A stretch of DNA of 64,000 nt, taken from a virus (lineage: Duplodnaviria > Caudoviricetes). The position numbers and the translations under genes were made by a program. The DNA lies in IMG/VR virus record IMGVR_UViG_3300028840_001835. One strand, 5' to 3'. The number at the start of each line of letters is the position of its first letter. Positions within the stretch are counted from its first letter, which is position 1. Shown one piece after another: positions 13,681-63,961 of this stretch. The notes under the pieces are model-generated. The model saw nothing but the letters and a program-made list of their open reading frames with translations. It was not told the origin of the DNA and did no database searches.

Positions 13681-15909
13681 ATGTCAATAAAGGAGCTTCA
13701 GGAATACACACGGATTTCAAAATATGCAAGATATAACCACGAATGCGCAAGACGGGAGACCTGGGATGAACAGATAAATCGGGTCGTCAACATGCACCTC
13801 ATCAAGTATGCTAATGTAAACATAACTGATGAGTTGAAAGTCGTGGAACAGGCTATGAAGAGGAGACTCGTCCTCGGTTCTCAACGAGCCCTACAATTTG
13901 GAGGAAGGGCGATACTTGAGAAAAATGCACGGCTATATAATTGCACAGCATCATATTGTGATCGACCTCGTTTCTTTCAGGAAACGATGTGGTTACTTCT
14001 TTGTGGTTGTGGTGTAGGATTTAGTGTTCAGAAACATCACATAGCCAAACTTCCAAAGATCAAGAAACCAACCGGAAGAACATATTCCATAAAGATAGAG
14101 GATTCGATTGAGGGTTGGGCCGATGCCATTGGACAACTTCTTTCATCCTATTTTCAGAGCGATCAACCACATCCCGAGGTAAAGAATTTTACAATTGAAT
14201 TTGATTACTCCGATATAAGACCAGCAGGTTCTATAATCAAATCTAGTGGCGGGAAGGCTCCCGGGCCTGAAGGATTGAAAAACTCAATCGAAAAGATTAG
14301 ACAACTGCTTGATAAAATCTGCGATGATGGTCTTACCAGATTAAGACCTATAGACGCATATGATATAGTCATGCATATATCAGACGCGGTCTTGTCCGGT
14401 GGCGTACGGCGTTCTGCAACAATATGTTTATTCTCATTGGATGATGAGGAAATGATGAATGCCAAGATTGGCAATTGGATGAGTACGAATCCACAGAGGG
14501 CCCGAAGTAACAATTCAGTCATCCTTCTTAGAGATAAAACATACTATAAGGACTTTAAGGAGATCATTGAGAATGTAAAACAATTTGGGGAGCCTGGATT
14601 TGTATGGGCCGATGATCTTGAATTTCTAGTCAACCCATGTGTTGAGATAGGTATATATGCCTATGATAGTAAGGGAAATAGTGGATGGGGGTTTTGTAAT
14701 CTTTGCGAAATAAACATGAAGAAAGCAAAGACCCGTGAGCAGTTTCTTCAAATGTGTGAATATGCAGCGACCATGGGAACATTACAAGCTGGATATAATT
14801 CCTTCCCCTATCTTGGCAAACCTTCAGAGGAAATAGTAAAACGGGAAGCACTACTTGGCGTGTCTATGACAGGCATGATGGATAATCCAGATATAGCCTT
14901 TGATGAGGAACTTCAGCGAGAAGGTGCAAGATTAGTCAGAAAGACCAATGAGAGAATTGCAGGAAAGATTGGAATTAACATAGCTGCTCGGGCGACCTGC
15001 GTAAAACCCGCTGGTAGCACTAGCTGCATACTTGGTACGGCGTCCGGAATCCATCCACATCATTCAAAGAGATATTTTAGACGACAGCAGTCCAATAAGA
15101 TGGAAGAACCGTTACTATATTTTAAGAAGATCAACCCTCTCGCCGTCGAGGAGTCCGTATGGTCGACTAATAACACAGATGAAATGATTACTTTCGTCTG
15201 CGAAGTACCGGCCAACGCAAGAACAAAGGTGAACATAGAGGGAATCAAACTTCTTGAATATGTCAAACTGACTCAGAAGAACTGGGTACAATCTGGAAGA
15301 GATAAAAGTCGTTGCGTTAAAGAATGGTTGAGTCATAACGTTTCAAATACTATTCATGTGAAAGACGATGAATGGGATGAGGTATCCAAATACATATATC
15401 AAAATAGAAAATTCTTTGCTGGTATTTCAATTCTTCCAATCGACGGAGACAAGGACTACCCTCAAGCACCATTTACGACCGTATATACACCAGATGAGAT
15501 AGTAAAGGAATATGGAGATGGGTCATTAATGGCTTCTGGTCTTATTGTTGATGGGATGAGGGCATGGGATGATGATCTATGGGCAGCATGTGCGTGTGTA
15601 CTTGGGCATGGGGAAAACATAACCCTTCCTGACTTTAATAGTGTGAAACAACGAAATAGATGGAAGAGAGAAAATAACTATGATGAGAAGATGGAATGGT
15701 TGCGAAGGGCTAAGCAATTCTCAGATAGATACTTCAATGAAGATTTAAGAAAGATGACATACTGTCTAAAGGATGTATATAACTGGAAACTATGGTGCGA
15801 CCTCAAACGTGAATATAAACCAGTCAACTGGGAAGACTTTCACGAGGAGAGGGACAACACAAAAATAACAGATACTGTTGCATGTGCGGGAGGCAAGTGT
15901 GATCTGTAG
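13681..15909 (+). CDS. nrdJ: Class II (adenosylcobalamin-dependent) ribonucleotide reductase, monomeric RTPR type
   Basis: NCTA, GCGVGFSV, SGGVRRSA, NPCVEI, FCNLCE, TCVKPAGSTS, C-terminal CAGGKC; no intein. Confidence 0.93.
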   Translation: MSIKELQEYTRISKYARYNHECARRETWDEQINRVVNMHLIKYANVNITDELKVVEQAMKRRLVLGSQRALQFGGRAILEKNARLYNCTASYCDRPRFFQETMWLLLCGCGVGFSVQKHHIAKLPKIKKPTGRTYSIKIEDSIEGWADAIGQLLSSYFQSDQPHPEVKNFTIEFDYSDIRPAGSIIKSSGGKAPGPEGLKNSIEKIRQLLDKICDDGLTRLRPIDAYDIVMHISDAVLSGGVRRSATICLFSLDDEEMMNAKIGNWMSTNPQRARSNNSVILLRDKTYYKDFKEIIENVKQFGEPGFVWADDLEFLVNPCVEIGIYAYDSKGNSGWGFCNLCEINMKKAKTREQFLQMCEYAATMGTLQAGYNSFPYLGKPSEEIVKREALLGVSMTGMMDNPDIAFDEELQREGARLVRKTNERIAGKIGINIAARATCVKPAGSTSCILGTASGIHPHHSKRYFRRQQSNKMEEPLLYFKKINPLAVEESVWSTNNTDEMITFVCEVPANARTKVNIEGIKLLEYVKLTQKNWVQSGRDKSRCVKEWLSHNVSNTIHVKDDEWDEVSKYIYQNRKFFAGISILPIDGDKDYPQAPFTTVYTPDEIVKEYGDGSLMASGLIVDGMRAWDDDLWAACACVLGHGENITLPDFNSVKQRNRWKRENNYDEKMEWLRRAKQFSDRYFNEDLRKMTYCLKDVYNWKLWCDLKREYKPVNWEDFHEERDNTKITDTVACAGGKCDL

Positions 15910-53124: not shown

Positions 53125-53261
53125 GATAAAAACCAACCCGAAATTACGGTATTTTGACGAAAAACCGGGGTTCGATTCCTGTTTTTAGCCGAAAAACCGG
53201 GGCGGGCTCCCGGCCGGGGTTTTGACTGAATTTCGGGACCCTGGTTTTGTTCAGAAAACCC

Positions 53262-63329: not shown

Positions 63330-63365
63330 TTTTAGTCCTTTCTCTTGATGTTAATGGTTTTGTTT

Positions 63366-63590
63366 TGGTGCCTGGGAACAGAGAAAAATAATACCAAGGA
63401 TGATAACAACTAATAAGAATGAACAACAAAAAGACCCAGCGAGCTGATTAACCACAACAACAAATTAGTGTAGGAATCGAACCTTTGCATGCCCGCTATA
63501 CGTTCATCCATTACGAGTGTAATATATTTGGTCTATCCTTCCTTTTCAGAATCCAGGACCGAAGTCCGTTCATCCTAGTTCCACAGGACT
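63366..63590 (-). ncRNA. Candidate structured ncRNA with tRNA-like D/T arms (YrlA/Y-RNA-like)
   Basis: D-like arm CGT-AATGGATGA-ACG, T arm AGG-TTCGATT-CCT, GGAC-TTCG-GTCC hairpin, U-rich loop, 3' CCCAGGCACCA. Confidence 0.45.
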
Positions 63591-63602: not shown

Positions 63603-63896
63603 TTATTCTAGTGGTGAGACTAGGCTATCATAGTCGATATCAATATCGACCTTGACTTTTGCGTTACTCTCTTTGATGGTCTGGTCGATGTTGAACAGGG
63701 CCTTGTTCAGTTCAACGATCTTTCTATCGACATCCTTCACATCATAGGTAGGCTCCTCGACACGTTTCTCTTCCTGTTCCATGCCGTAGTACCTCGTCCT
63801 TGATGTACTCTGATTCTTCAGCTCGTTAAGCTGATGTACTCTCTGCTTCAATGACTTCTCCATTGAGAGCAGAGCATTGATTGATAAGTTAGCCAT
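63603..63896 (-). CDS. Coiled-coil protein (DIP1984/DUF6847-like)
   Basis: LSINALL...LKQR..QL...P.YDV..VD..I..L......I..SNA.V.V; GGAGG RBS. Confidence 0.55.
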   Translation of the reverse strand: MANLSINALLSMEKSLKQRVHQLNELKNQSTSRTRYYGMEQEEKRVEEPTYDVKDVDRKIVELNKALFNIDQTIKESNAKVKVDIDIDYDSLVSPLE

Positions 63897-63933: not shown

Positions 63934-63961
63934 AATATAGTAAAGTTTTTAAGTCTGTCAA
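63934..63961 (-). promoter_or_regulatory. Promoter class A (TTGACA-N16-TATATT)
   Basis: AATATAGTA...TGTCAA on the + strand. Confidence 0.8.

What the first reader, a model, noticed from the sequence alone, without database searches (positions are those of the whole stretch)
63366..63590. Unannotated structured RNA with tRNA-like D and T arms, U-rich loop and CCA end (Y-RNA/YrlA-like)
Seen on the minus strand, in a ~270-nt gap between ORFs: a GGAC-UUCG-GUCC hairpin (63556-63567) with an alternative AAGUCC/GGACUU pairing; a GG-containing D-like arm (63501-63515); a perfect T arm AGG-UUCGAUU-CCU (63472-63484); a long UUG/UUA-rich tract; end pairing GGU-CCUGG with CCAGG-C-ACC (bulged C), followed by CCA. 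No anticodon arm of tRNA geometry is present. Established: bacterial and phage YrlA Y RNAs contain a tRNA-like D/T domain and partner Ro60 near RNA-repair genes. Inference: a Y-RNA-like or new tRNA-mimic ncRNA, possibly a decoy for tRNA nucleases. No Ro60 gene is in this window, and the bulged C lies on the 3' strand, unlike classical Y RNAs.
Basis: partly seen in the sequence, partly recalled or inferred. Interest (0 to 1): 0.68.

Follow-up and report, generated by a model that had tools for sequence, protein, structure and literature searches.

The report
New phage RNA with partner protein
The gap holds a real, conserved, roughly 220-base folded RNA from an uncatalogued family that always follows one small helical-protein gene in large uncultured phages; it is not a Y RNA or a dead tRNA, and only this phage's copy has a tRNA-type T-arm hairpin.

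Summary
Window 63368-63589 (minus strand) encodes a genuine structured RNA.

About 35 of 47 distinct phage loci with a homologue of the upstream 97-aa gene carry the same element a median 8 nt after the stop codon. On 19 relatives, 92.8% of base-pair cells pair (60% shuffled, about 40% slid), and all 35 pairs show compensatory changes.

A covariance model built without the window finds the window copy full-length (30.9 bits, E=6e-4). A sequence-only profile finds it as the only hit in the 202-kb genome (E=8e-4). Rfam 15 has no match.

The core is three single-stranded (UUG)n boxes. No other neighbouring gene is conserved, so gene and RNA form a two-part cassette, most likely an RNA-protein particle (inferred).

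The T-arm box GGUUCGAUUCC is real and non-random but is specific to this copy. The D-like arm is weak, and the "CCA end" lies inside the closing helix. The genome has no Ro60.

This scan has noted DIP1984/DUF6847-like gene plus RNA pairs in at least 28 other genomes. This one is a distinct short-protein branch with 3-nt rather than 7-nt repeats. Function is unknown.

The parts
63368..63589 (-). Whole conserved structured RNA element (222 nt).
   Evidence: Covariance models R1 and R2 both match it full-length (30.9 bits, E=5.9e-4 in the window). An nhmmer profile of 19 relatives hits genome 20586-20773, which is window 63579-63392, as the only significant match in 202 kb.
63578..63589 (-). P1 5' strand, GUCCUG-U-GGAAC. 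It starts 13 nt after the stop codon of the upstream gene.
   Evidence: It pairs with 63379-63368 at -13.3 kcal/mol. The same position pairs in every relative with an unrelated sequence: 12 of 12 pairs have compensatory changes.
63368..63379 (-). P1 3' strand, GUUCC-CAGG-C-AC.
63548..63577 (-). Junction UA, then the P2 hairpin: AGGAU/AUUCU outer stem and GGAC-UUCG-GUCC tip (63567-63556).
   Evidence: UAGG followed by a covarying hairpin is present in the relatives (helices 2 and 3 are 94-95% paired). Window fold.
63541..63547 (-). Conserved GAAAAGG junction after P2.
   Evidence: The family consensus here is yGAA.
63528..63542 (-). P1b 5' strand, purine-rich GGAAGGAUAGACCAA. It pairs with 63397-63383.
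   Evidence: Duplex energy is -13.4 kcal/mol. The family strands are 60% and 36% purine. Support is only moderate, because strands from other loci often pair as well.
63383..63397 (-). P1b 3' strand, pyrimidine-rich UUGGUAUUAUUUUUC.
63501..63515 (-). D-arm-like hairpin CGU-AAUGGAUGA-ACG. It lies in the variable region where some relatives have an optional hairpin.
   Evidence: Seen in the sequence. It is not conserved and not statistically distinctive.
63491..63498 (-). P3 5' strand, UAGCGGGC.
   Evidence: It pairs with 63444-63437. P3 covaries in the relatives (helices 4 and 5).
63437..63444 (-). P3 3' strand, GCUCGCUG.
63472..63484 (-). T-arm-like hairpin AGG-UUCGAUU-CCU, an insertion of about 21 nt in the P3 loop found only in this copy.
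   Evidence: It is an exact tRNA T-loop box, expected 0.07 times per window. It is absent from the relatives, and the profile alignment treats it as an insertion.
63455..63464 (-). Box 1, UUUGUUGUUG, in the P3 loop. This is the most conserved stretch of the family.
   Evidence: UUgUUgUu is conserved in at least 90% of 19 relatives. The box region has a 3-nt periodicity.
63422..63432 (-). Box 2, UUUUUGUUGUU, after P3.
63403..63413 (-). Box 3, UUAGUUGUUAU.
63603..63896 (-). Partner gene P0001: 97 aa, helix, beta-hairpin, helix, distantly DUF6847/DIP1984-like.
63934..63961 (-). Sigma-70-like promoter TTGACA-16-TATATT (11 of 12) ahead of P0001, the probable start of the gene-plus-RNA transcript.
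   Evidence: This is a consensus match only.

Best explanation
The interval is the gene for a roughly 222-nt structured non-coding RNA of an uncatalogued family.

Shown:
- The RNA is closed by a 12-16 bp helix of its two ends (P1).
- P1 is followed by UAGG, a hairpin (P2) and a GAAAAG junction.
- A second hairpin (P3) presents an invariant UUGUUGUU in its loop, and two more UUG-repeat boxes follow.
- The helices covary across about 35 phage loci.
- The element always sits a few bases after the stop codon of one roughly 95-aa helical-hairpin protein gene.
- Nothing else in the neighbourhood is conserved.

Inferred:
- Gene and RNA are transcribed together. In this phage the likely start is a sigma-70-like promoter.
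- The RNA is the dedicated partner of that protein: an oligomer of the protein probably reads the three single-stranded (UUG)n boxes displayed on the folded scaffold, giving an RNA-protein particle.
- The cellular target of such a particle is unknown.

Specific to this phage: the RNA lies in the tRNA island and has acquired a tRNA-type T-arm hairpin inside the P3 loop. This is most likely an added tertiary-contact or tRNA-enzyme docking module. It is not a family feature.
For: - Homologues of the upstream protein were found in 6 viral and 52 metagenome loci. The DNA behind their stop codons shares UAGG, GAAAAG and UUGUUG motifs in different reading frames.
- The end-pairing helix is present in each locus with an unrelated sequence. 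A locus's own arms pair better than arms from other loci in 305 of 342 comparisons.
- CM R1, built from 5 sequences, finds 31 loci plus the window.
- On 19 relatives, 92.8% of cells pair against 60.3% shuffled and 37-46% slid. All 35 pairs are compensatory.
- CM R2, built from 19 relatives without the window, finds 27 loci at E below 1e-3 (about 35 at E<=1, each directly after the gene) and the window at 63369-63589 with 30.9 bits.
- The sequence-only profile gives E=7.6e-4 and a unique hit in the genome.
- The median gap from stop codon to RNA is 8 nt.
- Two complete phage genomes of 168 and 219 kb each hold one copy.
- No other gene cluster is shared by more than 7 loci.
- The protein subfamily has 283 clusters at 50% identity, nearly all 90-100 aa. 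The AF2 model is helix, beta-hairpin, helix with pLDDT 79.
- No Rfam match.
Against: - No expression data exist. Transcript ends, processing and protein binding are all inferred.
- The fold energy of the window copy alone is unremarkable (z = -1.31).
- The window copy is a divergent member: 19.6 bits with R1, and its P3 region is remodelled.
- The covariation counts were made on alignments fitted to the model.
- Genetic linkage would also fit a purely cis-acting 3'-UTR element.
- More distant homologues of the protein (for example L033, L053) have no room for the RNA.
- The protein has no recognisable RNA-binding domain.
Confidence: 0.6

Rival explanations
1. The element is a cis-acting part of the mRNA and not a trans-acting particle. 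It could be a 3'-UTR fold that stabilises or autoregulates the upstream gene, or a leader or insulator for whatever gene follows.
For: - It starts a median 8 nt after the stop codon, so a terminating ribosome would open P1.
- In most loci a Shine-Dalgarno site and start codon follow within 10-70 nt, often after a U-run.
- A few loci have an intrinsic terminator just behind it: L037 was called by the scan, and L045 shows a terminator-like hairpin plus U-run in the sequence printed there and.
Against: - The downstream genes differ completely between loci.
- About 200 nt with three conserved single-stranded boxes and a multi-helix scaffold is far more than mRNA end protection needs.
- In L035, L054 and L046 the element is followed directly by tRNA genes, not by an mRNA.
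Confidence: 0.2
2. It is a trans-acting base-pairing RNA or a sponge. The three UUG-repeat boxes would pair with A/C-rich (CAACAA-type) sequences, or soak up a host U/G-binding protein such as Hfq, S1 or a cold-shock protein, independently of the upstream protein.
For: The only nucleotides conserved at 90% or more are single-stranded UUGUUGUU stretches, which is typical of seed or binding sites. Many copies end with a U-run after P1.
Against: This does not explain the strict linkage to one protein gene in otherwise unrelated neighbourhoods. No target was identified and the hosts are unknown.
Confidence: 0.12
3. It is a Y-RNA/YrlA-like tRNA mimic that partners Ro60 or decoys tRNA nucleases.
For:
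- 7 of 46 related loci also lie next to tRNAs or tmRNA.
Against: - No TROVE gene in the genome.
- No Rfam Y RNA, YrlA or tRNA hit at E<=10.
- No GNCGAAN0-1G motif.
- The closing helix is not conserved in sequence.
- The T and D hairpins are absent from all relatives.
Confidence: 0.03
4. It is a decayed tRNA gene, or a tandem tRNA remnant, in the tRNA island.
For: - The GGTTCGATTCC box lies on the tRNA strand.
- 'GACCA-aatatat' (63531-63520) and 'CACCA-aaa' (63370-63363) resemble the CCA-plus-spacer junctions of this phage's tRNA arrays.
Against: - There is no acceptor or anticodon arm, and tRNA models are silent.
- The whole interval is alignable to a family found in phages at places without tRNAs and without these motifs.
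- At most the roughly 21-nt T hairpin could be tRNA-derived.
Confidence: 0.03
5. The U-rich tract encodes small hydrophobic peptides: the 33-aa ORF at 63410-63511 and the 34-aa ORF at 63351-63455.
For: Both ORFs translate to membrane-like peptides.
Against: - Neither ORF has a Shine-Dalgarno site, whereas the flanking genes do.
- In the relatives the conserved boxes fall in different frames and ORFs are not conserved.
- Variation follows base-pairing, not codons.
Confidence: 0.02

Closest known systems
ROOL and GOLLD (orphan ornate RNAs of phages and prophages, Rfam RF03087 and RF01998; bioRxiv 10.1101/2024.12.08.627333).
   Same: They are phage-encoded and strongly covarying, of unknown function, and 'often near tRNA islands'. 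Here the window copy and 7 of 46 relatives lie beside tRNAs or tmRNA.
   Different: There is no sequence or structure match. This RNA is 180-220 nt, against about 580 and over 800 nt. It has an obligate protein-gene partner, whereas ROOL and GOLLD have none known and form RNA-only cages.
Bacterial Y RNAs of the YrlA type with Ro60/Rsr (PMC4201824).
   Same: Both are small RNAs closed by pairing of the 5' and 3' ends, genetically tied to one protein gene. The window copy has T-arm-like and D-like hairpins.
   Different: There is no Ro60 gene, no Ro60-binding helix sequence and no GNCGAAN0-1G motif. The tRNA-like hairpins are not family features. The partner is a 95-aa helical hairpin, not a TROVE ring.
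TRAP with the trp leader and HutP with the hut leader (Bacillus): protein oligomers that read rows of spaced triplets. This comparison is from my own knowledge and earlier notes of this scan.
   Same: Short repeated triplets (here UUG) are displayed single-stranded in several boxes, next to a small protein likely to oligomerise.
   Different: The triplets are contiguous (period 3), not spaced. The RNA is a closed, autonomous scaffold and not a leader with a terminator. The protein is unrelated, and binding is untested.
DIP1984/DUF6847-gene-plus-RNA pairs noted earlier by this scan in at least 28 genomes (AI notes, for example e1-854213, e1-5281358, e1-5193965).
   Same: The layout is the same: a small helical protein of the DUF6847 type, then within a few bases an end-paired RNA of about 200-300 nt absent from Rfam, sometimes in phage tRNA clusters.
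   Different: Here the protein is a half-length (about 95 aa) branch that stays below Pfam's cut-off. The RNA shows no 7-nt periodicity. I could not test whether the RNAs are homologous to each other.

Membership tests
YrlA / bacterial Y RNA. | Encoded next to, or in a genome with, a Ro60 (TROVE) gene. | tested here: not met
   PF05731 has no match in the complete 202-kb genome; the controls ring in Deinococcus and Bacteroides.
YrlA / bacterial Y RNA. | Conserved Ro60-binding helix sequence and the GNCGAAN0-1G motif (PMC4201824). | tested here: not met
   The motif is absent. All 12 P1 pairs change freely between relatives.
YrlA / bacterial Y RNA. | Match to Rfam Y RNA or YrlA models. | tested here: not met
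   No such hit even at E<=10 on 451 nt.
YrlA / bacterial Y RNA. | A tRNA-like D/T domain conserved across the family. | tested here: not met
   A T-loop box is present only in the window copy. No element in the relatives has it.
tRNA or tRNA pseudogene. | Cloverleaf recognised by ARAGORN or Rfam RF00005, with acceptor and anticodon arms. | tested here: not met
   Only 16 nt separate the D-like and T-like hairpins, and no acceptor pairing exists (sequence).
tRNA or tRNA pseudogene. | T-arm box GGTTCGAWTCC. | tested here: met
   Exact match at 63473-63483, expected 0.07 times per window. However, the stem has 3 bp, not 5.
New RNA family defined here (models R1 and R2). | Full-length match to a covariance model built without the window sequence. 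| tested here: met
   R2 gives 30.9 bits over positions 1-194 of 194, E=5.9e-4 in the window and 0.0024 in 262 kb.
New RNA family defined here (models R1 and R2). | Position directly 3' of a P0001-like gene, on the same strand. | tested here: met
   The gap is 13 nt here; the family median is 8 nt.
New RNA family defined here (models R1 and R2). | P1, UAGG-P2-GAAAAG, P3 with UUGUUGUU in its loop, and further UUG boxes. | tested here: met
   P3 is remodelled and carries an insertion.
Pfam DUF6847 (PF20935) / NCBIfam DIP1984 (NF038048), for the partner protein. | Score above the curated cut-off. | tested here: inconclusive
   Scores are 18.3 bits against a cut-off of 27, and 19.4 against 70. 19 of 33 relatives hit PF20935 below threshold. 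Only the C-terminal half of the profile is covered. No PDB relative was found by sequence or by fold.
'Heptad-repeat' RNAs behind DIP1984-like genes (earlier notes of this scan). | A row of units spaced 7 nt apart. | tested here: not met
   Autocorrelation in the box region is 0.39 at lag 3, 0.33 at lag 6 and 0.29 at lag 7, against 0.28 shuffled.
GOLLD / ROOL / other Rfam 15 families. | Match to the family model. | tested here: not met
   There is no hit on the element in the window or in 27 relatives, at gathering threshold and at E<=1.

The most novel reading that the evidence does not exclude
The small helical-hairpin protein and this RNA form an undescribed ribonucleoprotein particle carried by many large phages. 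A protein oligomer would read the three (UUG)n boxes. In this phage the particle has also captured a tRNA T-arm, which would plug it into the tRNA world of its 37-tRNA island, for example docking to enzymes or defence nucleases that bind the tRNA elbow.
Probability: 0.3. Interest if true: 0.78.

Novelty: categorically new. Interest (0 to 1): 0.62.

Why it matters
Orphan structured RNAs with strong covariation are rare entry points to new biology. This one comes with a built-in clue: an obligate partner protein with at least 283 sequence clusters.

The cassette is compact, about 0.55 kb, so it can be expressed in E. coli and tested directly for particle formation and structure.

It adds to the old question of why phage tRNA islands carry extra stable RNAs, such as GOLLD, ROOL and, from my own knowledge (not checked here), the T4 species 1 and 2 RNAs. 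It also shows that a tRNA T-arm can be grafted onto an unrelated RNA scaffold.

Caveat: the function is unknown, and this scan has already noted the broader gene-plus-RNA theme on other DNA.

Tried and rejected
1. blastn of the gap against 50,697 cultured phage genomes: no match. tblastn of three family proteins against the same set: no match.
2. The downstream gene P0002 has no relatives in viral contigs, so it is not part of the unit.
I reached the loci with the search for related loci instead.
4. An exact 21-mer around the T arm is absent from viral contigs.
5. A degenerate box1...box2 DNA pattern gave 95 stretches (80 listed as loci); none of the 80 is a family member by R1. This was a dead end and says nothing about RNA copies without the gene.
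6. GTDB genomes have no relative of the protein. No longer or fused forms were found.
7. The genome search with R1 missed even the window copy, because its pre-filter is too strict for this divergent member.
8. The reverse-transcriptase (retron or DRT-like) idea fails: the genome has no RVT_1.
9. A scan for a pseudoknot or extra covarying pairs found nothing beyond P1-P3.
10. The P1b helix is only moderately supported.
11. Sigma-70-like promoters upstream of the gene are only mildly enriched: 34% against 16% at 9 of 12 or better.
12. Literature searches for DIP1984, DUF6847, UUGUUGUU and jumbo-phage ncRNAs found no description.

Full report
**Context**

The window is the reverse strand of bases 20165-84164 of a complete 202.5-kb uncultured phage genome with terminal repeats. 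All 37 tRNA genes and a tmRNA lie on one strand in the first 24 kb. The finding is at genome 20576-20797, inside that island.

Its immediate neighbours are:
- upstream, a 97-aa gene, P0001 (window 63603-63896, minus strand);
- downstream, an 80-aa gene, P0002, and then tRNA-Gly(UCC).

**Checking the observation**

- The T-arm box GGUUCGAUUCC is clearly non-random. It is expected 0.07 times per window, and this is the only copy on the tRNA strand of the whole genome that is not in a tRNA.
- The D-like hairpin is weak. It has a 3-bp stem, and its AAUGGAU occurs 44 times on that strand.
- The 'CCA' overlaps the paired ACC.
- On its own the region does not fold better than shuffled sequence (z = -1.31).
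- ARAGORN finds nothing, and Rfam finds nothing at gathering score or at E<=10.

So the single sequence could not settle anything. Comparison with relatives did.

**Relatives**

The gap has no DNA match in cultured phages. P0001, however, has homologues at 30-62% identity. An alignment of them retrieved 6 viral and 52 metagenome loci, most from contigs of large phages.

Behind the stop codon of most of these genes lies about 200 nt without a credible ORF. These stretches share UAGG, GAAAAG and several UUGUUG stretches, and the motifs fall in different reading frames from locus to locus. The gene that follows is different almost everywhere.

**Structure and covariation**

In each locus the 12-16 nt just before UAGG are complementary to a stretch 150-220 nt downstream, although their sequences are unrelated between loci. 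Arms from other loci pair as well in only 37 of 342 swaps, mostly between close relatives.

Single-sequence folds agree on a common plan:
- a closing helix P1;
- a side hairpin P2;
- a purine-rich strand that pairs with a pyrimidine-rich strand near the 3' end (P1b, moderate support);
- an optional hairpin;
- a hairpin P3 whose loop holds ACUUUGUUGUUGAU;
- two further UUG-rich boxes.

Model-based searches gave the following:
- Covariance model R1, built from five sequences, found 31 loci and the window.
- On the 19 best relatives, 92.8% of pair cells are standard pairs, against 60.3% after shuffling and 37-46% when partners are slid. All 35 pairs have changes on both sides, in 207 cells. The alignment is fitted to the model, so these numbers lean towards it; the P1 result is independent of the model.
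- Model R2, built from those 19 sequences and not the window, finds 27 loci at E below 1e-3, and about 35 at E<=1 that lie directly after the gene. It places the window copy at 63369-63589, full-length, at 30.9 bits (E=0.0024 in 262 kb, 5.9e-4 in the window).
- A sequence-only profile of the 19 relatives hits the 202-kb genome once, at this place, with E=7.6e-4.
- No Rfam 15 family touches the element in the window or in 27 relatives.
- The literature searches found no description.

**Anatomy in the window (minus strand)**

| Feature | Coordinates |
|---|---|
| P1 | 63589-63578 with 63379-63368 |
| UA junction | 63577-63576 |
| P2 | AGGAU 63576-63572 with AUUCU 63552-63548 |
| P2 tip (GGAC-UUCG-GUCC) | 63567-63556 |
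| GAAAAGG | 63547-63541 |
| P1b | 63542-63528 with 63397-63383 |
| D-like hairpin | 63515-63501, in the family's variable zone |
| P3 | 63498-63491 with 63444-63437 |
| T-arm-like hairpin | 63484-63472, part of an insertion of about 21 nt in the P3 loop |
| Box 1 | 63464-63455 |
| Box 2 | 63432-63422 |
| Box 3 | 63413-63403 |

The family shows that the partner is the 5'-terminal copy of the same GUCCUG word.

The only positions conserved at 90% or more are in the UUG boxes. The box region has a 3-nt periodicity and no 7-nt one.

**The cassette**

- The RNA starts a median 8 nt after the stop codon; here the gap is 13 nt.
- Two complete phage genomes hold exactly one copy each, at the gene.
- Clustering all ORFs within 3 kb shows no other gene shared by more than 7 loci.
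- The protein subfamily has 283 clusters at 50% identity, nearly all 90-100 aa.
- The protein is absent from cultured phages and from GTDB genomes.
- It is predicted as helix, beta-hairpin, helix (pLDDT 79), a prefoldin-beta-like shape, with no significant PDB match.
- It matches DUF6847/DIP1984 only below threshold and over half the profile.
- In this phage a strong sigma-70-like promoter precedes the gene. Such promoters are only mildly enriched in the relatives.
- tRNAs or tmRNA lie within 3 kb in 7 of 46 relatives. In L035, L054 and L046 they follow the RNA directly.

**What it is not**

- Not a Y RNA or YrlA. There is no TROVE gene, no GNCGAAN0-1G motif (PMC4201824), no conserved Ro-binding helix, and the T and D hairpins are specific to this copy.
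- Not a dead tRNA. The whole interval aligns to a family that lacks tRNA features. At most the T hairpin is tRNA-derived.
- Not a retron-like RNA. The genome has no reverse transcriptase.
- Not small ORFs. They have no ribosome-binding sites and no conserved frame.

**Most likely mechanism (inference)**

Gene and RNA are made as one transcript. The RNA folds once ribosomes have left the stop codon, or after processing. It then serves as the dedicated partner of the protein, which as an oligomer reads the three single-stranded UUG boxes.

The strict two-part linkage in otherwise unrelated neighbourhoods is the main argument. I put this reading at about 0.45. I put the existence of the RNA family, and the window copy's membership of it, at about 0.9. 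A purely cis-acting 3'-UTR role (0.2) and a protein-independent pairing or sponge role (0.12) remain open.

**Earlier notes of this scan**

After I had reached the cassette reading, look-ups showed that this scan has noted DIP1984/DUF6847-like genes followed by uncatalogued RNAs in at least 28 other genomes, often described as 'heptad-repeat' RNAs.

These are unchecked AI notes. They prompted the periodicity test, which this subfamily fails, and a re-check for RAGATH-type Rfam hits, which found none. Whether all these RNAs share ancestry was not tested.

**Limits**

- There are no expression or binding data.
- The hosts are unknown.
- E-values from the short calibration are rough.
- The window copy is a divergent member.

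Noticed in passing
Same genome, outside the window (genome about 13830-13905, plus strand).: A tRNA-like gene that ARAGORN did not call. It has a GCCGATG/CATCGGT acceptor stem, a CUCAUAU loop (anticodon CAU), a GAGAGTTCGAGTCTCTC T arm and an ACCA end, but an odd D region.
   Followed up: no
window 53169-53179 (+).: A second exact GGTTCGATTCC box, on the strand opposite to all tRNAs and outside any called tRNA. I did not check whether it lies in a gene.
   Followed up: no
L013:2614-2868 (+).: A group I intron (Rfam RF00028, 68 bits) just upstream of the P0001-like gene of a related phage contig.
   Followed up: no
L006:6128-6182 (+).: A type-P5 twister ribozyme (RF02684, 51.6 bits) about 2.6 kb downstream of the cassette in a 219-kb phage.
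   Followed up: no
L035:456-1056 and L054:393-994 (+).: The RNA is followed within about 23 nt by tRNA-Leu, tRNA-Arg and a phage tmRNA with a long tag ending in VAA or VAV. The layout suggests one precursor of stable RNAs.
   Followed up: partly
L024:1414-1510.: A long, near-perfect palindromic hairpin that hits many miRNA models on both strands. It is probably a terminator or a recombination site.
   Followed up: no
window 63531-63514 and 63370-63361 (-).: 'GACCA-aauauau-U' and 'CACCA-aaac' resemble the CCA-plus-spacer junctions between this phage's tandem tRNAs (compare). This may be chance or a trace of recombination with tRNA arrays.
   Followed up: partly
window 63520-63515 and 63472-63467 (-).: A 6-nt direct repeat UACACU flanks the segment that holds the D-like hairpin, the P3 5' strand and the T hairpin. 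It could be a trace of how the copy-specific hairpins were acquired. Its significance was not assessed.
   Followed up: no
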